Positions 21,632 through 61,995 of a DNA stretch of 64,000 nt are shown here, piece after piece. This stretch comes from Nitrosopumilaceae archaeon (GTDB lineage Archaea; Thermoproteota; Nitrososphaeria; Nitrososphaerales; Nitrosopumilaceae). Made by a program: the position numbers and the translations under genes. The stretch's first letter is position 1. Every line of letters begins with the position of its first letter. The stretch lies in NCBI GenBank assembly GCA_965208905.1, contig OZ242365.1, positions 1,504,001 to 1,568,000 of the forward strand, in the 5' to 3' direction. Below the pieces are notes generated by a model. That model was not told where the DNA came from. It worked only from the letters and a program-made list of their open reading frames with translations, and ran no database searches.

Positions 21632-21650
21632 TAGAGTTTATGCGTAATTG
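21632..21650. repeat. IS5-type terminal inverted repeat TAGAGTTTATGCGTAATTG
   Basis: Identical to the left end of the IS5-family element at 60408-60426. Confidence 0.85.
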
Positions 21651-22237
21651 CACAACTTGGCAGCATTGGGTGGTCCCGGCCCGTTCTGGCCGGCACCGCC
21701 CACCCCGGTACAGCCCATCGGCTCACCGCCGACGGAATTCTGGCGTTCCGGTTTGTGCGCCCCCGACAGATGCCATTCGGCATCTGCACTACGGCCCTCT
21801 AACAGCCGCATGATGTTAAGGAGTGTAATTCTCCGACCATGCGTGAGTGTACGGTCGGCGGCCGCCTTTTTCAGCAGCCGTATTATGTGATATAGTGTGG
21901 GGTCTGGTGACCCAAGTGGTGTATGACACATTAGGGCCAATATGGTACGAAATAGTATGTTGGCACCCGCGTTGGCATCCCGTTCCCTAATTGTACGACA
22001 TGTATAGCACCACATGTCGCGGGTCGGTATTTTACCGGTATTTGTCCCGATATGTTTTAGACTGCCGCCACACTTGAGACATTTCGCGGATGTATTTCGC
22101 GGTTCGATGCCTATATGCGGCAGACCCTCGGACTCGGCTGCATTTTTGAGTGCGTTCTGTCTTTGGCCTGTATTCAGTGTGGATTTTGTTTTGCCACGGA
22201 TAAATGGTGATATTGTATAGTTTTTGGTGTACAGTCG
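21638..22237 (-). pseudogene. tnpB: 3' part of a TnpB-like RNA-guided nuclease gene, 5' end removed at the IS3 junction
   Basis: IEPRNTSAKCLKCG...WCYTC...RERDANAGANIL (Zn finger plus RuvC-III). The stop codon lies inside the TIR at 21632-21650. Confidence 0.8.
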
Positions 22238-23484
22238 TGGTGGGGACCCCGCTAGAATGAGAACACTCACGTTCATACAGCTTAAAGTCGTAATGGGAGG
22301 GATGATGCCATGGTAAGAACAAAGTTTACTCCAGACCAAAAGATCCAGATCGTTTTGGAATCAATCAAGACCAATATTGGCACGGCCGAGCTGTGCCGCA
22401 AGCACAACGTTCATCCCCAAACGTTTCAAGCCTGGCGGCAAAAGTTCATGGACGCAGGCAAGTCCGGACTGACCCATCACGGAAAGAAGGATCCGATAAA
22501 GGCCATCAAAAAGGAGAACGGCGACCTAAAGCGAATCATAGGGGATCTGACAATCGCAAACGACGCTTTAAAAAAAACCTTGGAGGCAAGCAACGATTGA
22601 ACGCGGTAAAAATCATGCAGGAACAACATTTGAGCCTGCGCAAGTCGCTAGGGTATGCGGGCGTATCCAGGCGCCAATGGTACTACAAACCCAAGCCCAG
22701 AGACATGGGATTGAATCCGGATATATTGAGCACTGTGCTAGATACGAGCAGAAAGAGGCCCACGTACGGCACACGGCGCATGGCGGCCCAGATAACGCGC
22801 GATACGGGAATTGTGGTGAACCGCAAGCAGATACAGCGGATATATCGCAAAATGGGCTACATCCAGCCACAAAATACCAAAAACGACATCATTCGAGCGG
22901 GTCAAAAGCTCTTCAAACCCAAAGCCCCACACCAGTTGTGGGAGACGGACATCACATACATCTGGTGCGGTATAGACGGCTGGTGCTACTGCTTCAACGT
23001 AATTGACTGCTTTACGCGCAAGTGGATCGCCTACGCGTTTGATGTCAATGCCACACGAGACATTGCAATCACCTCAATCACCAACGCGGTTGCCGCAGAG
23101 AAACCTGACTGCTCACAATTACGATTGCGTACGGACAACGGCAACCAGTATACGAGCCGCGACTTTAGACATGCGGTTCAGGCCCTTGGCATCGGCAAAC
23201 ATGAATTCATCTACAAGAATACGCCGGAGCAGAACGGACATGTCGAATCATTTCACAAGACGCTGAAAAAGGAATACATCTGGCCGCACGAGTTTGCGAA
23301 CTATCAGGAGGCAGAGACGATCATTGCAAAGGCCTTTGTAGATTACAACACCGAGAGGATTCATTCCTCTATCGGATACATGACACCAGTAGAATTTGCC
23401 GAACAGTTGGAGATGACAAATAAATGATGGAAGATGTATGTAAAATCATGCCGAAAACAGTAACATTCTATGGGGTCCACTCCA
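22238..23484 (+). mobile_element. IS3-family element, apparently intact (OrfA 22310-22600; OrfB to 23427 via -1 frameshift)
   Basis: TG...CA ends with imperfect IRs (TGGTGGGGACCCCGCTAGAATG / CATTCTATGGGGTCCACTCCA); A-run at ~22570; integrase-core motifs WETDITY, RTDNG, NGHVESF. Confidence 0.93.
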
Positions 23485-52157: not shown

Positions 52158-53720
52158 CAGGATGTCAATAAGATTGTGGAGTTTTTTAGTAAAAAATTCG
52201 ATGTACAGGACAGGGAAATTGCACAGAAGGACGATACAATAGCACAATTACAGGACCGGATAAAGCAGCTGGAGGAGGAAGTCACACAGACGAAATCGCG
52301 TAGGTATGGCGGCAAAAAATCCCGGTCATATAACATCCGTAAATACAAGGACTACCCACACCAGCACACGCCAAGAAACAGGCCCGACAACTCTGACTCG
52401 CACCAATTTCGTACAATACAACAGGTGGCCGATATTGTATTCTGTCCCACGTGCGGCAAACATCTTGCAGATACTGCTGTATCACGCACCCGGAAATCCG
52501 AGGATGTGTTAGACGGGCGATGGACCGTAACTGAATGGGTAGTACGCCGGCGATACTGCAAACACTGCCGTACGCAACACTCTGCAACCATTCCGGGTGT
52601 GCTGTATAATGGACATTTTGGCACTACAATAATGGCCCAGATATTTGCAATGCGGTGCCTTGCCATACCGTATGAAAAAATTCAAACCATAATACACATG
52701 CTGTTTGGCAGGTTCATCGACACATCCGTAGTTATAGACATGTGCGATGCCGTTGCAGACCGGTGCGAGCCGTTATACAATGAGATGTTGGAGGCTATAC
52801 AGCATACCGATATAGTATTTGGGGATGGCTCCGGATGGTTCCTTAATGGTGTACACTGGTGGGTCTGGGCGTTTATCACCTCACACATAGTACTGTTTCA
52901 TCTGTCTCCGTCCCGCAGCAAGCTTGTAACTGAGGCCATACTGGAGGGGTTTGATGGGATAATTGTAGGTGATTCACATTCCTCGTGGAATGATATAGGC
53001 CTGGAAAAACAGAGGTGTCTTCTGCACTATTTCCGTGACATGTACCGCACGCTAGAAAAGAACAATAGTCCAGAGTTCAAGCAGCTATTCACCGAGCTGC
53101 ATTCCATACTAAAGGATGTAATAAAGCTGCGGGAAGAACACCGGAAAACACCCGAATTGTACATACGTCGTCTACAGAGCCGCATATGTACTCTTGCAAA
53201 TGCACAATACACGGATTCGGACTGTATACGATACGCCAAGCGTTTAAGGCGCGAGGGCGGACAGCTTTTGACGTTTCTAAAACATGATGACATACCGTAC
53301 CACAACAACACAAGTGAGCGCGCCCTACGGACATTTGCACTAATGAGAAAGGTCTGTTACGGAAACCGCGCAAGGCGCGGCATAAAGACCGCTGAAATAC
53401 TGGCGAGCATATATGCAACCTGCCGTGTACGCGGCATAAACCCGTACTATTTTATGAAGGATTATCTTGACGGCAATACGGACACGATTCCACTGCCGCA
53501 AGACTCCATGATTCCAGTTGCCATCAGTACGTGATGCATAAATTGTTGCAGGACATCAGTCAGATACATCCACCTGTCTCTATTTCCAGTTGCCATCAGT
53601 ATGTGATGCGTAAATTATTGCAGGAAAGGTCAATACGATACTGCCGTGTGTATATGATTATGGATGGTTCACCGTATTTGTGTTGTGTGTGATCCCAGCT
53701 TCACAATCACGAGCTGTTAC
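52154..53720 (+). mobile_element. IS66-family element (transposase 52176-53534)
   Basis: Ends GTAACAG...CTGTTAC; CPTCG, CKHC, QRCLLH, HNNTSERALR. No TSD seen; ~42-bp direct repeat at 53512 and 53584. Confidence 0.85.
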
Positions 53721-53844
53721 GCATAAACTCCATTATTCATAATTGCAGAAAAAGGTGGTTTTAACGCCTGATAGATAGGCCGATCAAGCGTATATGAACA
53801 ATGTCTAGTTTTTATATCTAAATGTATTAAACGAGGTTAGGTCT

Positions 53845-54501: not shown

Positions 54502-55382
54502 GGTCATATGGTCTAAGTCTTGCACCACTGGGAGTTCGATATTTTTTTGGCCATCCAGATCCACTTTTTGATGGTTCTCTAGAATTTGGATTGAGGTTGG
54601 AGCTGTCCGTCTTTTTCATGACATAATAACGTGCACACATCTTTTAAAGTTTAGCGGACATGATGCTATTTCCGAACCGTTTAACATCAAATGACCCCCA
54701 CATCCTATGTTATGTAAGTCACATCTACAAAAGATCAGCAACAAAACCACACTATCACACTGCAACCGGGATGTGAGGTTCGTTTTGAAAAGTATTTGCC
54801 TGCGGGACATACCCCATAAAATCAATGTTAATTATGCATAAACTCTAATATCCGTAATTCTTACTTTCATGTCAAATCCAGGTTCAAATATTCTGATTTC
54901 AATTAATTCCACATATTGTCTAATGTTCAGTGCATCAGAGGCAAATCCAGAAAAAACCGTGCCATCATAAGCGTACGATTTACCGAAAGGCTCAAGGGTT
55001 CGCCCATATCCATCAAAACCACAACTTCATTACGCCTGCTCCGACAAGCTTGTCGTAATTGAATAATTAGTATTTATCGTGGCGGCGCGAGGCACTTCCA
55101 GAAAAAACATCGGGGTCAAATCCTGTCGAGATTTCTCCTTAAATAATAACCATGTCACATTTCAAGATCGTTTGTATGTCGAACCTAAGAATACCGTATT
55201 TTTCTAGGCCTCCTGTGGGGTCTGACCGTTTTTCTGTGGGATGCCCTTCGGGTGCCGTTTCTGGTCAAAATTACCATACCGGTGCATATAACTGCAGCAA
55301 ATTTTGTCTGTTTTCTGGCTCTAGTTTGAAAATGAGTGCATTATTTTGGATAGTCTTATGTGCATCAGGGCAGGTTCCCGGA

Positions 55383-56315
55383 TCATTCGGCATTGACCAG
55401 TTTGACAAGTCTCTGCAGATATATAGTAAATTGGTCTACAAACCCGTTGAATTTTTTTTCATCTATTTCTGTAACCAGCAAATCTTTTTCCCCGCCCCAT
55501 TCGAATATATTGTCTTGTTCGACAAGCATTCTTTTTTGCGCGAAATTATTCCTAAATCTTTCATAGCGCAGCAGCGCAAAGTCAATTTTTTTAATTACAC
55601 AACCTTCAATATCTTCTACGTCTATTCCGAATTCCTCGGAAATCATGTACACATCTAAAAAATCTCGAGCTTTGGTTCCTCTTCTGGTTAAGAGTGCCCT
55701 GATCTTCTCACTCATAATTTCTTTTATGTCATATATCCTAAAAGGTATCGAAGAGGAGTATTGATCATATTCGTCAAACACACCCTCCAGATCTTTGTGT
55801 TCGTCTCCAATCAGGCTCCGAAGGGCCCCGTATTGCGGTTTCATGCACAAATCTTCTACAAAGTTTATTTGCACTTTCAAATCCACATTTCTGTTTAGTA
55901 TTACAGAGTTATAGCGGATGTGGAATGTAGTGATCCTTCCACCGTTGTTTAATTCCACGTAATTCCTGTTGCCTTTATCCCACTTGAAATCAAGGTTGCA
56001 CCCGGCCGCGATGCCTTCCAACATGTTTCCAGTCTGTTCCAGCACATCTTCCAAATACTTGACAATCCAGCTCGTTGTTTTTCCGACAAACTCTTCCTGT
56101 TTCCGCCATGTAAAGTCCAAGTCTTCGGAGAACCTGTAATATCCGAGATAATATTTTATCAGGCAGGTCCCACCCTTGAAAAGAAAATTATCGGCAAAGA
56201 ACCCATCTCTGGACAGGTCTGCAAGTATTTGATGTAAGACAAAGTCTTTTTCAATTTGTTCCATTCTCGAAATCTTTGTCAGCGTCGAGACTTGATTTAT
56301 GAAGTACGAATTCAT
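55383..56315 (-). CDS. abiEii: AbiEii-family nucleotidyltransferase toxin (type IV TA)
   Basis: IEKDFV, FKGGTCL..YY...YRFSEDLDF, EKIRAL..R..ARDFLD. Confidence 0.92.
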   Translation of the reverse strand: MNSYFINQVSTLTKISRMEQIEKDFVLHQILADLSRDGFFADNFLFKGGTCLIKYYLGYYRFSEDLDFTWRKQEEFVGKTTSWIVKYLEDVLEQTGNMLEGIAAGCNLDFKWDKGNRNYVELNNGGRITTFHIRYNSVILNRNVDLKVQINFVEDLCMKPQYGALRSLIGDEHKDLEGVFDEYDQYSSSIPFRIYDIKEIMSEKIRALLTRRGTKARDFLDVYMISEEFGIDVEDIEGCVIKKIDFALLRYERFRNNFAQKRMLVEQDNIFEWGGEKDLLVTEIDEKKFNGFVDQFTIYLQRLVKLVNAE

Positions 56316-56947
56316 TAAACCATCCTATCCACCATTTTTGCTACCGATTTTGGATAGTTTACGGCATATCTCTGCATCTTTTTTTGGGATACGTTTTCAG
56401 CCCATTCAGAGGTATCCATCATAATTCTTTCACTGTTCTTTCCTTCTTGCCGCCACAAATAAACAAAGTCCAAAATTGTCTTTTCTGGATCAGAGTAGCG
56501 AAGTAGTCCTTCGGTCTTTATTCCAAAACCAAGCAGGGAAGGGACAATCTTGATAAAGTCGAAATAGTATCCTGTTATCTTTATTGGTTTTTGACGAAAT
56601 ATAGAATCATTGATCACCTTCTCAATCACAAAATATTCATGCGTCATGTTGTTGAGTTTCAATGCGGAATGAAGGCCAAAGTGCCAGTTTTTTACACCCT
56701 TTAACTCCATACCTTTTGCTACCAGTTCCAGATGGTTGTATCTTTCCTTTCTTAGTACCATATCCTCGGGAGGCCTAACATAAAATATTCCCCTAAAGAT
56801 CCTTGTCAGGTGACCACGGTGAACAAAGTTTCTGACAGTTGTGTCGTAATCCAAGTGCAGTTTAATGCAGTAACCTTTTAGGACCTCGGCGGTGACAAAT
56901 TCTTCTTTCTCCACCCATAGCTTGTTGAGTAGCTTACTTATCTTCAT
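56315..56947 (-). CDS. abiEi: AbiEi-like antitoxin / transcriptional regulator
   Basis: wHTH-like N-terminus (RIFRGIFY), SAL, SDPEKTILD; TAATG coupling to the toxin gene. Confidence 0.8.
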   Translation of the reverse strand: MKISKLLNKLWVEKEEFVTAEVLKGYCIKLHLDYDTTVRNFVHRGHLTRIFRGIFYVRPPEDMVLRKERYNHLELVAKGMELKGVKNWHFGLHSALKLNNMTHEYFVIEKVINDSIFRQKPIKITGYYFDFIKIVPSLLGFGIKTEGLLRYSDPEKTILDFVYLWRQEGKNSERIMMDTSEWAENVSQKKMQRYAVNYPKSVAKMVDRMV

Positions 56948-56951
56948 GTGT

Positions 56952-57024
56952 ATAACAACCTCTCACTTAGTGAGAGTTTATGATATATATAATAACATCT
57001 CACTTAATGAGAGGTTATGATATA
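56952..57024. promoter_or_regulatory. Two tandem palindromic operators upstream of abiEi
   Basis: CTCTCACT-T-AGTGAGAG (56960-56976) and a second copy TCTCACTTAATGAGA at ~56998, each followed by TTATGATATA. Confidence 0.75.
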
Positions 57025-57162
57025 CAACAGTCTTCCAATGTCGGGCTGTAAGGAAATCTTGAACAAATTACGTACCTCAGGGCGCTTAGACCAGAGTACT
57101 CCAAGGCGTCGTGCCTGTTAAACGTGCTTCCAAGAGGCAGGTCGGTTACTATCCTAACCACT

Positions 57163-58636
57163 CTAGAGTTTATGCGTAATCAGAGTTAGTAGAGTTTATG
57201 CGTAATCAAACCACTTTCAAGCGATCTGAAACACATAACACGCTGTTGGTGTTTCCACCATCCAGAGGTATACATTGAGCCTTCCGCGTACCGGGAAGGG
57301 TTGCTCCAACCACGGGGGGAGTCATACCCGTGTCAAGATGTATCTGCCCTCTCGAGGCCAGTCTGACCTCGCGCTGGAGTTTCTGCACGGCGCGAATCCG
57401 CGCAGACCACCAGACGATTGCAAAAGTGTATAGTATATTGAATGCTGCGTTTACATCCGCGTGTATTGTTTTACGACTGTTCATGACAGGTTAATTTCCG
57501 GCCTTCGCGCAATGTGTTATATCTGCAGCACATAAAGCACATCTTTGAGGTGTTGCGGGGGTTGACCTCTGCATATTCGACGTTGTGTCGTGTGGAGCCA
57601 TACGCCATGTAATTCCGTGCCTCGCCGCACTTTGACTGTCGCATCTTTTTGTTCTTCTCTGTCTGTCCCGGGCCGGCGCGCGTCAGGGTATCAAGCCCCA
57701 TCCCCTCAAAGATTATCTTGTCACACTGCTCGAATAGTTTTTTGGCGAACTTTCTGAGTCTGTCGCGCTGACGATTCTTCATCTTTCTGTATATGGCGTT
57801 TAACTGTTTTTTGAGATTGACATATTTCCGCGAACCTGCTGTGCAGCGCGACATGCGCTGGTGCAGCCCGCGTATCTTGTGTAGTGTGATCTTTTCGCGT
57901 AATGACAATACATTTGCGGTTCCATCGGACTTGGCAACTACCATGGTATGGTGCCCACCCATGTCTACTCCGGCGAACACACCGGTACATACGCGGTCCG
58001 GTATATGCTCACGAACTGTCACATGTAGCTCGAACTGCCGTTCCTTATCAGAGTGGTTTGTAACGTCTACTATCTTGTACGACTGGGAGTCTTTGGGCAG
58101 CTCGCCTTTCTGCAAGTAGAATGGAACACTGCAACACGGAAAGTAGACCACATTGCCGGTGGACTTTTTTCCCAGCGGCCTGGCGCTATACAATGGATAT
58201 GTATGGTTGCCATACGGTACAACCCTCTTGTGTTGTACGTCTGGTGTCTTGCACTTGCACACATCTTCAGGTGAGCCGCACGATGTACAGCTGCCCTGCA
58301 TCTTTCTGCCGACCTGTATCGCCCCGTACGCGAATGCTTGTGGTATAGTAGATACAAGCGTTACGACCTTTGCGCAGTCAATGAACGTCGCCCCAATGTT
58401 TCTGGCCTGCAGACCGGCGTTCAACCATACATGAGACTCGGACTCCATCGAATCAAAGTATGCAGTCAGCCGGGTGCTAGTCTTGAGACGATACGTTAGT
58501 GTGCGGGTCACATGCTTGGTTCCCTGATACTTTGGTATAATGTACTGTACAGTCTATACAATATACATGATCCGACATATATATACAATTTTAAAAATTA
58601 TAATAGTCAGATTTTTCGATTACGCATAACCTCTAG
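57163..58636 (-). mobile_element. Non-autonomous element bounded by IS5-type TIRs carrying only a tnpB-like gene
   Basis: CTAGAGTTTATGCGTAATC (57163; core repeated at 57190) and GATTACGCATAACCTCTAG (58618-58636). Confidence 0.85.
57206..58511 (-). pseudogene. tnpB: TnpB-like RNA-guided nuclease with one frameshift near 57485
   Basis: RuvC-I GVDMG, RuvC-II IIFEGM, VNPRNTSKMCFMC; RuvC-III HADVNAAFNIL lies in the next frame. Confidence 0.88.
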
Positions 58637-58639
58637 TGT

Positions 58640-59100
58640 CATAACCCCTTACGAGTTTGGCTTATTGGTGTCACTGGGGTACGCTCTTGTCATTGCCATA
58701 GCCCCCTCTGAACACAAAACATCCTATTGTATCTTGAGACTGATCTCTTGTACAACATTCTCCCACTTTCTGGCGGCCACAGAATCTCCAAAAAATCTCT
58801 TAAATGAAGATGTTACTATCTCAACCAGCCATCTCAAGCCATATTTCACTCGCCTCTTCCACTTTTTTCGGTTAGACTCGCGCTCTTCCTTTGTCAGCTG
58901 CGCAAACCTTCTCGGGTCTGCAATGCCGTCGCCTAACTGATCAATAACTGCCATGGTCCTGTCCCTGCTGACACCACGGGAGCGTGTCGTTGCATTATGG
59001 TTTATCCGGACATAGGGTATGATACCAAGTTATTTGCATGTCTCAAATATCCTACGCGAATCAAACCCACCATCTGTGCGCATCACTATATTTGCAACAG
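58640..59100 (-). pseudogene. IS5-family (IS903-like) transposase 3' remnant
   Basis: GGFDSRRIF...WKRRVKYGLRWLVEIVTSSFKRFFG. Confidence 0.75.
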
Positions 59101-59359
59101 TTCGTAGCTGTGAAGTTAGGCGTGAAAAATCTGATACTTGGTCAGGTTATGTCTATTTCTTCAAGCAAAAGACTGCTTTTTACGCATGGATATCATGCTG
59201 ACCTGACTAAGTATAATTTTAGTATATAACCCAACCTCATAACGGCGAGATGTTACGATTTTTGATGTTTTGCTAGTTACACCTAAACGACATGGCGTCG
59301 GTACAAAAGGGACATCACATACCCAAAAATCTTTAAGATGGTGCACATCATAATAGTGT

Positions 59360-60406: not shown

Positions 60407-61995
60407 CTAGAGTTTATGCGTAATTGACATGCATATTGTATAGATGGTTATGATCAATTTACACTATTTGGTAAATATTCTAAATATGGGACAAAATTGG
60501 ATGAATTTTGGCATTATGCTATGTAAAACAGATCTCCAGTCAAACTTTTAGCGATACGTGTTTTCGACAGTGCCGACGGCCCGGTTGATATTCCCAAAAG
60601 TTGTGTGCAGTCTCGTGCATGTAAATCATGGTCCGCTGTATAAGCAGGTGGTACCAAGTACCGCCATACGTCATGATGATGCCCTCATACGGAGTATCTT
60701 GTCCTTCCAGATATGGTAGGTACCATCCCTGTGCATCTTGCGCATGTCATACATATGGCATTAAAGTCGTCATTGAACTCTTGTGTTGTACCATCATATC
60801 TGCCGGATATGCGCGTCCAGTTTTTAACATGCGCAAAGACATTCTCAACTTTTATTCTTCTTTTAGAATGGGTCCTGTTGTATGCCCGTTTAGTCTTTGG
60901 GAGTTCCTTATTTTTTGGCTTTATGTATGGAACGCGCTCATCTACACCGGCAAAGTATTTTTTCAAATCCTGATGTATACTATCCCCAACAACCTGTATA
61001 CGTTCCTCTCTTGGGATTTCATTATGCTGCATTCTGTCCAACCATTTACCAAAATTAGGCATATTCTCCCTGAATACTGTAATATCATGACAGCTTCCCT
61101 CCCTAGAATTGGTTATTATACACAACGTAACTCTTCTTGTTGGTTAGGGCGGTCGTGCTGATGGCAAACATCTTGCCCTTGCCCGAATACTATTTCTTTC
61201 GCTCGGTACTATTTTGGGGACGGGTTGTCTCGACCAGTGTGCCGTCCGGTATAATCTCGCCACCCTGACGCCCGGGCAGTATCTCTTTTAATTCTTCAAT
61301 GGTTTTGGTAGATTCTATTAATTTTGTAATGTTGTGCGATGTCACCAGCAGTACATCATCATCATGTGTAGCCACAAACTTGAGATAGCGTAATTTGATC
61401 TATTCTGAACATTTCACCCAGTACAAACTGTGGCATGTTGAGGGCCCGCCGCATGAGCGACATCAAAAATATATGTCGTATGTGTAGTAGACATTGATTT
61501 CCAGCATCAGACTTTCTACTTTTATCATCCCTGAAATGAGGCACATCAGGACTATTCCGTATAATTTTATCGAACAGGGCAAGAGCCTCCTTAAACTCAC
61601 CCCTACGAAGCCGTGTAAAACGGTACATTATTTCATCATTGCCGATTATTCTATTCCATCATCAATACCATATCAGGAGGCAGGTCAGATGTGTGCCGCT
61701 GTTTGCCAGTATCGGTAATCCAGAATTTGTTATCCCGCTTGATAAGTTCATTTAATTCTGTTATCTGCCTAGTATTTTCTGCTAGTTCCTTATCCTTCTT
61801 TGCTAGTTCCACATTCTTCTCTACCAATTCCTTATCCTTTTTTGCCAGGAGCGTCCATAACTGCCTGTCATCAAGTGATTGCATGATTTCTATCCTTGAA
61901 ATTATATTTAACAGTACAAATTAGAAAATTTAACTAATGGTCAATAAAATTATAGTAAGCGGTTTTTAAGATCATCAATTATGCATAAACTCTAG
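60407..61995 (-). mobile_element. IS5-family (DDE_Tnp_4/ISL2-like) element, transposase fragmented
   Basis: TIRs CTAGAGTTTATGCGTAATTGA / TCAATTATGCATAAACTCTAG; fragments IIPDGTLVETTRP, SCHDI, VGDS, YNRTHSKRRIKVENVFAHVKNW. Confidence 0.88.

What the first reader, a model, noticed from the sequence alone, without database searches (positions are those of the whole stretch)
57163..58636. TnpB enclosed by the TIRs of an IS5-family DDE transposon
Seen: a tnpB gene with all three RuvC acidic residues and one frameshift is the only cargo between CTAGAGTTTATGCGTAATC and GATTACGCATAACCTCTAG. These are essentially the TIRs and CTAG flanks that bound the IS5-family element at 60407-61995, and the tnpB stop sits at the inner TIR edge. 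No TnpA, serine recombinase or IS605-type ends were recognised. Established: TnpB normally travels with IS200/605 or IS607, which lack TIRs, while eukaryotic Fanzors were captured by TIR/DDE elements. Inference: a prokaryotic non-autonomous TIR element that has captured an RNA-guided nuclease and is moved in trans by the IS5 transposase.
Basis: partly seen in the sequence, partly recalled or inferred. Interest (0 to 1): 0.8.

Follow-up and report, generated by a model that had tools for sequence, protein, structure and literature searches.

The report
TnpB cargo inside IS5-type transposon ends
A gene for an RNA-guided nuclease (TnpB) sits alone between the inverted end repeats of a cut-and-paste (IS5-like) transposon and has been moved as a unit by a transposase made elsewhere. 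This kind of partnership was first described in 2023, and this archaeal genome shows it very clearly.

Summary
The mobile unit is 57191-58634 (1444 bp, AGAG...CTCT) with a 3-bp target duplication (AGT). The outer TIR at 57164 is a solo remnant and the CTAG flanks are coincidental.

A 100% identical copy lies 8.5 kb away. It interrupts a repeat whose other copies preserve the empty site with one AGT. Contigs of other public runs hold the unit between different flanks.

The genome has no Y1 TnpA and no serine recombinase. Its single DDE_Tnp_4 gene, the IS5-like element at 60409-61993, is a pseudogene.

In congeners the same TIRs and the same 3-bp (mostly A-N-T) duplications bound several element types:
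- intact DDE-only ISs
- DDE+TnpB ISs
- ISs carrying only a second TnpB lineage
- MITEs

So this is a non-autonomous IS5-type element carrying tnpB and mobilised in trans. The window's tnpB has a 1-nt frameshift that copies in other samples lack.

The class is already published (Altae-Tran 2023: DDE-associated TnpBs, solos moved in trans), so this is a new member.

What may be new is a TAM-like base pattern next to the duplication, on the tnpB-5' side only. It appears here and in a second, IS1595-linked tnpB family, in a genome with 75 tnpB matches.

The parts
57191..58634 (-). Non-autonomous IS5-type element ('T0'), 1444 bp, AGAG...CTCT. Its only cargo is tnpB with its 3' guide-RNA-like region.
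   Evidence: A 100% identical copy at genome 1570174-1571619 matches only window 57190-58635. Contigs of other runs match only inside 57187-58639 and then run on unlike the window (table 7).
57188..57190 (.). Target-site duplication AGT on the RE side (tnpB 3' side).
   Evidence: The same triplet lies at 58635-58637. An empty paralogous site holds a single AGT for the sister copy.
58635..58637 (.). Target-site duplication AGT on the LE side (tnpB 5' side).
57191..57207 (+). Right-end (RE) terminal inverted repeat. It overlaps the tnpB stop codon.
58618..58634 (-). Left-end (LE) terminal inverted repeat, with one mismatch to the RE repeat.
57471..58511 (-). tnpB 5' part (346 aa). It holds RuvC-I (D in DMGG), RuvC-II (E in FEGMG) and the first three Cys of the zinc finger.
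   Evidence: Pfam OrfB_IS605 and Cas12f1-like_TNB. NCBIfam guided_TnpB at 78 bits, below the cut-off of 100. Alignment A1.
57206..57484 (-). tnpB 3' part (92 aa) in the +1 frame. It holds RuvC-III (HADVNAAFN).
   Evidence: Dropping one base at 57480 or 57482 gives one open 434-codon frame with all three motifs. Contigs of runs X5, X9 and X11 lack one base there (table 4).
57208..57400 (-). Guide-RNA (omega-RNA)-like scaffold region overlapping the tnpB 3' end. It runs up to the RE repeat.
   Evidence: Homologous to the conserved 3' region of 10 paralogous tnpB elements. The consensus fold has 33 pairs, 9 with compensatory changes. No RNA ends were mapped.
58638..58640 (-). TAM-like position: GAC (tnpB strand) immediately 5' of the LE-side duplication.
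   Evidence: C at this -1 position in 20 of 22 tnpB-carrying elements on the LE side, against 6 of 22 on the RE side.
57164..57181 (+). Solo TIR remnant 9 bp outside the element.
   Evidence: Not part of the duplicated unit. The triplet before it does not repeat at the right end.
60409..61993 (-). IS5-like (DDE_Tnp_4) element 'C' with the same TIRs. Its transposase is a pseudogene. Flanking triplets are ACT and AGT.
   Evidence: Pfam DDE_Tnp_4 on a 146-aa fragment. 3 frameshifts and 1 in-frame stop against an intact 398-aa homologue. Only copy in the genome.
21632..22240 (-). Truncated copy of the second tnpB lineage ('A-type') ending in the same TIR.
   Evidence: TIR at 21632. Match to residues 280-478 of the A-type TnpB at genome 1525641-1526240.
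54830..54847 (-). Solo TIR-like remnant. Another lies at 53715-53732.

Best explanation
The unit at 57191-58634 is a non-autonomous member of an IS5-like (DDE_Tnp_4) insertion-sequence family of this archaeal genus. It keeps only the about 17-bp terminal inverted repeats and carries tnpB plus its 3' guide-RNA region as sole cargo.

Shown:
- It has moved as a TIR-to-TIR unit.
- Each insertion duplicated 3 bp of target.
- Transposase-encoding elements with the same ends make the same kind of duplication in related genomes.

Inferred:
- The DDE transposase of a full-length family member bound the shared TIRs and cut and pasted the unit in trans.
- In this genome that helper is now dead, so the two copies are stranded.
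- Their tnpB is also disabled by a one-base insertion.

Inferred, less certain:
- When intact, TnpB is loaded with an RNA that reads through the RE repeat into the duplicated triplet and the flank.
- It cuts chromosome copies that still have the empty site, which carries a short motif (...C|A) just 5' of the triplet.
- Repair from the occupied copy then retains or spreads the insertion.
For: Unit and mobility:
- 1446 bp are 100% identical at genome 1570174-1571619, and identity stops at the TIRs.
- That copy interrupts a repeat. At least 2 other copies of that repeat (genome 299455 and 154223) read straight through with one AGT where the occupied site has AGT-element-AGT.
- Contigs of runs X5/X9 and X11 hold 90-99% similar copies. 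These run on into at least 3 different left and 4 different right flanks at 57187-57190 and 58633-58639.

Shared ends with a DDE family:
- The 17-nt TIR (<=2 mismatches) is found in 20 of 41 genomes searched, own genome included, and in 8 of 9 congeners.
- Between TIR pairs lie intact transposases of 389-451 aa with DDE_Tnp_4 +/- HTH_Tnp_4 (L013, L014, L015, L020).
- Two-gene DDE+TnpB elements occur in G006, 3414 and 3161 bp.
- TnpB-only elements of a second lineage occur as well.
- MITEs of 327-336 bp also carry these ends.

Same chemistry:
- Perfect 3-bp duplications flank 19 of 22 unique tnpB-carrying elements.
- They flank 10 of 15 DDE-only elements, and 9 of those 10 are A-N-T.

No alternative machinery:
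- 0 Y1_Tnp and 0 Resolvase matches in a 99.57%-complete genome.

Literature:
- The class is described in PMC10691335 section 9.

Homing part:
- C at -1 before the LE-side duplication in 20/22, against 6/22 on the RE side (Fisher p=3.5e-5) and 13/30 sides of DDE-only elements.
- All 7 non-A-N-T duplications are oriented with A toward LE.
- LE flanks from other runs read GTAC|ACT, ACAC|ACT, GCAC|ATG and ATAC|ACT.
Against: - No functional cognate transposase exists in this genome. The only DDE_Tnp_4 relative has 3 frameshifts and 1 stop. Yet the two tnpB units are 100% identical. Either transposition was recent or gene conversion between the inverted copies homogenised them, and I cannot tell which.
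- Element C's own flanking triplets differ (ACT and AGT).
- The transposases score far below NCBIfam's IS5 equivalog cut-offs (45-76 bits against 140), so 'IS5 family' rests on Pfam DDE_Tnp_4 and on end features.
- For the homing part, about 36 nt of lineage-specific linker plus the 17-nt TIR lie between the conserved RNA scaffold and the element boundary. Canonical TnpB RNAs have no such stretch.
- No RNA ends are mapped.
- The related elements counted are kin, so the p-values overstate.
- Both tnpB copies in this genome are frameshifted.
Confidence: 0.85

Rival explanations
1. An ordinary IS605/IS607-type tnpB element happened to insert into an IS5-derived MITE. On this reading the TIRs are only a shell and tnpB still has its own ends inside.
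For: TnpB is classically an IS200/IS605 or IS607 gene. NCBIfam's second and third hits are IS607_TnpB and IS200_TnpB, both far below cut-off. A perfect 10-bp palindrome lies in the 106-bp leader between the LE TIR and the start codon (read by eye).
Against: The stop codon overlaps the RE TIR, so there is no room for an inner right end. The unit always travels TIR-to-TIR with a 3-bp duplication. There is no Y1 or serine recombinase in the genome. All other tnpB families examined in this genome are also bounded by TIRs plus duplications.
Confidence: 0.04
2. The two identical copies arose by segmental duplication or gene conversion, not transposition. On this reading the TIR match to the IS5-like element is a relic of recombination between elements.
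For: The copies are 8.5 kb apart, inverted and 100% identical, although no live transposase is present. The region is an IS graveyard with solo TIRs and DDE_Tnp_1 fragments.
Against: Identity ends exactly at the TIRs. Each copy has its own matching triplet. An empty paralogous site exists. The unit has other flanks in other samples. Conversion may explain the identity but not the origin of the copies.
Confidence: 0.05
3. The TIR elements are moved by something other than the IS5-like DDE enzyme, such as another resident transposase that cross-recognises the ends, or TnpB-triggered recombination.
For: No intact cognate enzyme is found in this genome. The genome holds other live DDE transposases: 4 intact IS1595-type and several DDE_Tnp_1.
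Against: The duplication length (3 bp) and the A-N-T preference equal those of DDE_Tnp_4 elements with the same TIR in congeners. The resident IS1595-type IS makes 8-bp duplications and has different TIRs.
Confidence: 0.06

Closest known systems
DDE-transposase-associated TnpB elements (six 'DDE' branches of Altae-Tran et al. 2023, PMC10691335). A 2026 review lists the partners as ISL2, IS630 and IS1031 (PMC13565253).
   Same: Prokaryotic TnpB inside inverted terminal repeats. The tnpB 3' end lies within 250 bp of the transposon end. Solo TnpBs have ends nearly identical to transposase-bearing elements, and mobilisation in trans is inferred (section 9 read; review passages).
   Different: Here the helper and the cargo are mostly separate elements, and two unrelated TnpB lineages use one TIR. 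The host is a Nitrosopumilaceae archaeon (record titles). I could not see that paper's supplementary files, so I cannot say whether these very elements are in its data set. Its main text holds no 'TSD' and mentions TAM only in the Discussion.
IS1341-group (tnpB-only) members of IS200/IS605
   Same: A single tnpB gene of about 1.4 kb with a guide-RNA-like 3' region. Present in many copies in an archaeon without adjacent tnpA.
   Different: IS200/IS605 elements have no TIRs and no target duplication, and depend on a Y1 TnpA (stated in PMC3119063 table 4 and PMC13565253). This unit has TIRs and 3-bp duplications, and the genome has no Y1 gene.
Fanzor (eukaryotic TnpB homologues) in DDE/TIR and Helitron transposons
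   Same: An RNA-guided nuclease carried as cargo of TIR transposons, often in non-autonomous copies. In Chlamydomonas the guide RNA extends across the 3' terminal repeat into the target duplication (PMC10312701 passage). That is the geometry inferred here.
   Different: This element is prokaryotic, has no introns or NLS, and its TnpB is 434 aa. By sequence the T0 clade is nearest to bacterial TnpB structures, not to Fanzor.
MITEs and other non-autonomous IS derivatives
   Same: They keep only the TIRs of a DDE IS and rely on a transposase supplied in trans. True MITEs (327-336 bp) of the same family exist here and in a congener.
   Different: This unit carries a full protein gene with its own presumed selfish function.

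Membership tests
DDE/TIR transposon carrying TnpB, non-autonomous form | Terminal inverted repeats shared with a transposase-encoding IS | tested here: met
   The same 17-nt TIR bounds element C in the window and intact DDE_Tnp_4 genes in congeners.
DDE/TIR transposon carrying TnpB, non-autonomous form | Target-site duplication of the same length as the autonomous elements | tested here: met
   3 bp: 19/22 tnpB elements and 10/15 DDE-only elements are perfect. An empty site holds a single copy.
DDE/TIR transposon carrying TnpB, non-autonomous form | Evidence of movement as a unit | tested here: met
   A second copy in the genome. Other flanks in contigs of runs X5/X9 and X11.
DDE/TIR transposon carrying TnpB, non-autonomous form | A functional cognate transposase available in the same cell | tested here: not met
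   The only DDE_Tnp_4 relative in the genome is a pseudogene.
IS5 family (helper transposase) | DDE_Tnp_4/DDE_Tnp_1 catalytic domain with an N-terminal HTH | tested here: met
   Pfam DDE_Tnp_4 at 46-79 bits (cut-off 24.8). HTH_Tnp_4 above cut-off in L014.
IS5 family (helper transposase) | Score above NCBIfam's IS5 equivalog cut-off, which would allow a group assignment | tested here: not met
   transpos_IS5_4 at 45-76 bits against a cut-off of 140. The group (ISL2, IS1031 or other) was not resolved.
IS200/IS605 (IS1341 group) | No TIRs, no target duplication, subterminal hairpins, Y1 TnpA in cis or trans | tested here: not met
   TIRs and a 3-bp duplication are present. 0 Y1_Tnp matches, while the control genomes ring in 6 of 14.
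IS607 | Serine-recombinase TnpA | tested here: not met
   0 Resolvase matches. The control rings in 12 of 14 genomes.
TnpB RNA-guided nuclease | RuvC D-E-D triad | tested here: met
   DMGG, FEGMG and HADVNAAFN align with intact paralogues.
TnpB RNA-guided nuclease | Intact reading frame | tested here: not met
   +1 frameshift at about 57480-57482 in both genomic copies. The frame is continuous in contigs of X5, X9 and X11.
TnpB RNA-guided nuclease | C4 zinc finger between RuvC-II and RuvC-III | tested here: inconclusive
   Three Cys are conserved. The fourth position lies at the frameshift and is not Cys when the frame is read through. An extra Cys-rich 20-aa insertion is unique to this lineage.
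TnpB RNA-guided nuclease | Structured guide RNA overlapping the gene's 3' end, with the guide taken from the flank | tested here: inconclusive
   A conserved fold is shared with paralogues, with 9 of 33 pairs compensatory. There is no Rfam family and no RNA ends are mapped.

The most novel reading that the evidence does not exclude
In DDE/TIR transposons the transposase does not supply TnpB's target-adjacent motif (TAM). Even so, tnpB-carrying copies sit almost only where such a motif lies immediately 5' of the target duplication on the tnpB-5' side.
- IS5-type ends: ...C|A-N-N.
- A second family with IS1595-type ends: A-T-N-G followed by the 8-bp duplication.

This would mean TnpB reads a guide through the TIR into the duplication and cuts the empty allele. 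Only TAM-adjacent insertions would then be driven or retained. That is a selection filter, and it offers a prokaryotic model for why Fanzor-like nucleases ride cut-and-paste transposons. It is seen in a sponge-associated Nitrosopumilaceae genome with 75 tnpB matches and no TnpA at all.
Probability: 0.5. Interest if true: 0.75.

Novelty: new member of a known kind. Interest (0 to 1): 0.5.

Why it matters
What TnpB does for transposons that excise by double-strand cuts is an open question. The accepted 'peel-and-paste rescue' logic was worked out for IS605, whose TnpA target is itself the TAM.

This genome offers a compact natural experiment:
- dozens of tnpB-only units with clean TIRs and target duplications
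- two different DDE partner families
- empty sites
- intact and broken alleles across samples
- an end-specific flank motif that can be tested directly with a TAM screen and RNA end mapping

It also adds ammonia-oxidising archaea, here a sponge-associated lineage, to the hosts of DDE-linked TnpBs.

Tried and rejected
Duplication models tried and dropped:
It fits the outer TIR and element C by coincidence but fails for T1, A1, A2 and A3.
- A TA dinucleotide duplication. The empty site excludes it.
- A 1-nt duplication. It fitted 14 of 16 but is simply the middle base of the 3-bp triplet.

Frameshift: my first reading was a 22-nt insertion. That is wrong. Contigs of other runs and a frame test show one extra base.

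Internal-guide idea: the 36-nt linker between the conserved scaffold and the RE TIR might be a fixed guide. It has no match in the genome other than the three T0-type copies. Neither shown nor excluded.

Rfam: only sub-threshold miRNA-like hits on a palindrome at 56946-57028. Nothing on the element.

The search for related loci with the single protein found no relative. The allowed second scan, with alignment A1, gave 10 loci, 9 from one congener MAG.

A search of 61 genomes of the family (own genome included) with the T0 protein at E<=1e-40 matched only the own genome and G008. I therefore could not build a meaningful TnpB tree beyond the paralogues, and no tree was made.

K-mer search for the ends of the IS1595-type copies was noisy. 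The ends were instead taken from the extent of identity between two copies.

Expression:
- Run X23 is an RNA library whose contigs lie on 57188-57337, 57586-57866 and 57915-58176.
- Contigs of an RNA library do not show transcription, strand or ends, so I draw nothing from it.
- The window's flanks (56900-57186 and 58640-58900) had no or little cover in the four runs. This is not evidence of anything.

Other limits:
- Supplementary files of PMC10691335 (Additional Files 10 and 11, SI tables) could not be seen. They may already list these elements, the partner IS groups or an IS1595 link.
- Searches for print coverage: 'TnpB'+'IS1595' gave 9 papers, none about such a link by title or abstract start. 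'Cenarchaeum'+'TnpB' gave 0 papers.

Rows left out of the count:
- Of the 30 loci, six had no LE within the fetched stretch (L058, L059, L064, L066, L078, L079).
- Six were truncated or at contig ends (L055, L056, L061, L072, L077, L080).
- L068 had the same flanks as L052.
- The own-genome copies were taken by their coordinates instead.
- The base lists for the DDE-only control were typed by hand and rechecked.
Full report
**What is there.**
On the minus strand of 57206-58511 lies a tnpB gene split into a 346-aa and a 92-aa frame. Pfam finds OrfB_IS605 and Cas12f1-like_TNB in it. Aligned with ten intact paralogues, it has the RuvC-I Asp, the RuvC-II Glu and, in the second frame, the RuvC-III HAD motif.

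It occurs 35 times in the whole 2.21-Mb single-contig genome.

There are two tandem copies on the left (57164 and 57190) and one inverted copy on the right (58618). The tnpB stop codon overlaps the inner left copy.

**The true unit.**
A blastn of the region against the genome finds a second copy at genome 1570174-1571619, which is 8.5 kb to the right and just outside the window, in inverted orientation. It is 100% identical over 1446 bp. The identity starts at 57190 and ends at 58635. The inner left repeat is therefore the working end, and 57164-57181 is a solo remnant.

The second copy interrupts a repeated sequence, the upstream part of a DDE_Tnp_1 IS. The two best-matching other copies of that repeat read ...GTCGTAC-AGT-ATAACCC... 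without interruption. The occupied site reads ...GTCGTAC-AGT-[AGAGG...CTCT]-AGT-ATAACCCC. Three further copies of the repeat differ in the bases just left of the site.

This fixes the termini as AGAG...CTCT and the target duplication as 3 bp. The window copy has the same arrangement, with AGT at 57188-57190 and 58635-58637.

**Whose ends are these?**
The neighbouring element C (60409-61993) has the same repeats and encodes fragments of a DDE_Tnp_4 transposase. Against an intact 398-aa homologue from a genome of the same family (54% identity) it shows three frame changes and one in-frame stop.

It is the only DDE_Tnp_4 match in the genome. It is also the only tblastn hit of four intact congener or family transposases. 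The genome is 99.57% complete and has no Y1_Tnp match and no Resolvase match.

In related genomes the picture is complete. The 17-nt repeat (<=2 mismatches) occurs in 20 of 41 genomes searched, own genome included, and in 8 of the 9 other genomes of the genus. Between pairs of it I found:
- intact transposases of 389-451 aa with DDE_Tnp_4 and, in one, HTH_Tnp_4 above cut-off (L013, L014, L015, L020)
- elements of about 1.5-1.7 kb whose only gene is a second, very different TnpB of 470-520 aa ('A-type', Cas12f1-like_TNB only), which also has three full copies in the own genome
- two-gene elements in G006 (3414 and 3161 bp) with a 462-504-aa DDE gene and the A-type tnpB in divergent orientation inside one pair of related repeats
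- MITEs of 327-336 bp

**Same transposition chemistry.**
Among 22 unique tnpB-carrying elements with these ends, 19 have a perfect 3-bp duplication. These comprise 6 from the own genome and 16 from congeners; one of the 23 examined was dropped as the same site. Among 15 DDE-only elements, 10 are perfect and 9 of those 10 read A-N-T.

Shared repeats, shared duplication length and shared target preference, together with the absence of any IS605/IS607 enzyme, make mobilisation by this DDE family the only supported mechanism.

**Independent samples.**
I laid contigs of four public runs on 56900-58900. Contigs 90-99% similar to the element match only inside 57187-58639, then continue with sequence unlike the window. 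At least three different left flanks and four different right flanks appear (X5 and X9 show the same contigs; X11 differs, table 7).

The contigs that cross 57480-57482 lack one base there (table 4). Dropping one base at either place in the window sequence gives one open frame of 434 codons with all three RuvC motifs, the length of the paralogues. The window's tnpB is therefore a recent one-base-insertion pseudogene shared by both genomic copies, while intact alleles exist elsewhere.

**How it probably works beyond moving.**
The 3' 190 nt of the gene region is homologous to the conserved 3' region of the paralogous tnpB elements. It folds into a shared structure with 33 pairs, 9 of them with compensatory changes. 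About 36 nt of lineage-specific linker and the 17-nt repeat follow before the element ends.

If the guide is taken from beyond the end, as in known TnpBs and as shown for a Fanzor whose RNA runs across the terminal repeat into the duplication (PMC10312701 passage), it would start with the duplicated triplet. The matching target would be the empty site, and the TAM would lie just 5' of the triplet on the tnpB-5' (LE) side. That position is in fact conserved:
- The base before the LE-side triplet is C in 20 of 22 tnpB-carrying elements.
- It is C in 6 of 22 at the mirror position on the RE side (Fisher p=3.5e-5).
- It is C in 13 of 30 sides of DDE-only elements.
- The first base of the triplet is A in 22 of 22, while the mirror base is T in only 13 of 22.
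- All 7 non-palindromic triplets point their A toward LE.
- The four LE flanks seen in other runs read GTAC|ACT, ACAC|ACT, GCAC|ATG and ATAC|ACT.

The elements are relatives, so these p-values overstate. Still, a two-fold symmetric transposase should not produce an end-specific bias.

**A wider pattern in this genome (outside the finding).**
The genome has 75 matches to the TnpB TNB domain. Every tnpB family I looked at has its own inverted repeats.

The largest family has 13 full copies with repeats starting GGGAATTA. It has 8-bp duplications, perfect in 10 of 13. The four bases before the LE-side duplication read A-T-N-G: T at -3 and G at -1 together in 10 of 13, against 0 of 13 on the RE side.

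A resident IS1595-type IS has a 323-aa transposase and two copies sharing 2144 bp. Its repeats start with the same 10-11 bases, and it makes 8-bp duplications. A second DDE family therefore appears to serve tnpB-only passengers, with the same geometry of a motif next to the duplication.

In a congener, a member of the T0 clade carries GGGAATTA-type repeats and an 8-bp duplication (L115). TnpB lineages therefore swap ends.

**Comparison with what is known.**
Altae-Tran et al. 2023 (PMC10691335; section 9 read in full, other passages by search) reported the following:
- TnpBs associated with DDE transposases
- tnpB 3' ends within 250 bp of the transposon end

A 2026 review (PMC13565253, passages) names the partners as ISL2, IS630 and IS1031. 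Two of these are, from my recall of ISfinder, groups of the IS5 family.

The element fails the defining features of IS200/IS605 and IS607, and fits the DDE-associated class.

I could not place the transposase in a named IS5 group, because NCBIfam scores are far below cut-off. I also could not see the 2023 paper's supplements. That paper's main text does not mention target duplications, and mentions TAM only in the Discussion. The end-specific flank motif may therefore be unreported.

**Verdict.**
This is a real, well-bounded, non-autonomous IS5-type element with tnpB as cargo. It was mobilised in trans and is now stranded and frameshifted in this genome. It is a new member of a published class. 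Its value lies in the unusually clean system around it, and in the TAM-like asymmetry, which makes TnpB's role in cut-and-paste transposons testable.

Noticed in passing
Genome outside the window, e.g. G000:C1:102957-104422, 339644-341109, 456071-457536. IS1595-type IS at about 675271-677401 and 1211856-1213986.: The largest tnpB family has 13 full copies with repeats starting GGGAATTA. It has 8-bp target duplications and an A-T-N-G motif just 5' of the LE-side duplication. A resident IS1595-type IS shares the first 10-11 bases of the repeat and the 8-bp duplication. This looks like a second DDE family moving tnpB-only units. A search for 'TnpB'+'IS1595' found no paper on such a link.
   Followed up: partly
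Whole genome G000: 75 matches to the TnpB TNB domain in 2.2 Mb, with no Y1 TnpA and no serine recombinase. Every tnpB family inspected has its own terminal inverted repeats.
   Followed up: partly
G000:C1:376978-378450, and the identical pair 1455264-1456902 / 2049469-2051107: Some tnpB elements have very long inverted repeats (about 85-110 bp). In these the left end holds an inverted copy of the 3' guide-RNA region. Function unknown; an antisense or regulatory role is possible.
   Followed up: no
G000:C1:1455264-1456902 and 2049469-2051107: Two identical tnpB elements have mismatched 8-bp flanks. The RE flank of one equals the LE flank of the other (GGAAATTA). A rearrangement by recombination between the copies would give this pattern.
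   Followed up: no
window 55383-56947 and 56946-57028: An AbiEii-type nucleotidyltransferase toxin gene (Pfam 93.7 bits) has an overlapping upstream 210-aa partner gene with no Pfam match. In front of the pair lie two copies of a palindromic motif, possibly an operator, which Rfam scores weakly as miRNA-like hairpins.
   Followed up: partly
G000:C1:1402335-1402721 and at least 15 other places: A repeat of about 386 bp is present in many 100% identical copies across the genome. It was seen as a by-product of a blastn. Possibly a very active MITE.
   Followed up: no
G000:C1, about 1691500, just beyond the RE of the tnpB element at 1691748-1692713: A long tandem run of a 5-nt unit (CTACA-like, more than 25 units) directly flanks a tnpB element.
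   Followed up: no
L015 (G023:C1:256269-259499): An IS5-like element with the same repeats, carrying a nested second transposase gene (DDE_Tnp_IS240 + SWIM + rve, 467 aa) next to its own intact 398-aa transposase.
   Followed up: no
window about 58130-58190 (residues about 70-92 of the 346-aa frame): The T0 TnpB has a Cys-rich insertion of about 20 aa that is absent from all ten aligned paralogues. The fourth Cys of the usual zinc finger is missing.
   Followed up: no
window 58736-59146: A fragment of a DDE_Tnp_1 transposase with an in-frame stop lies right beside the LE of the element. The stretch from 53.7 kb to beyond the window's end is an IS graveyard.
   Followed up: no
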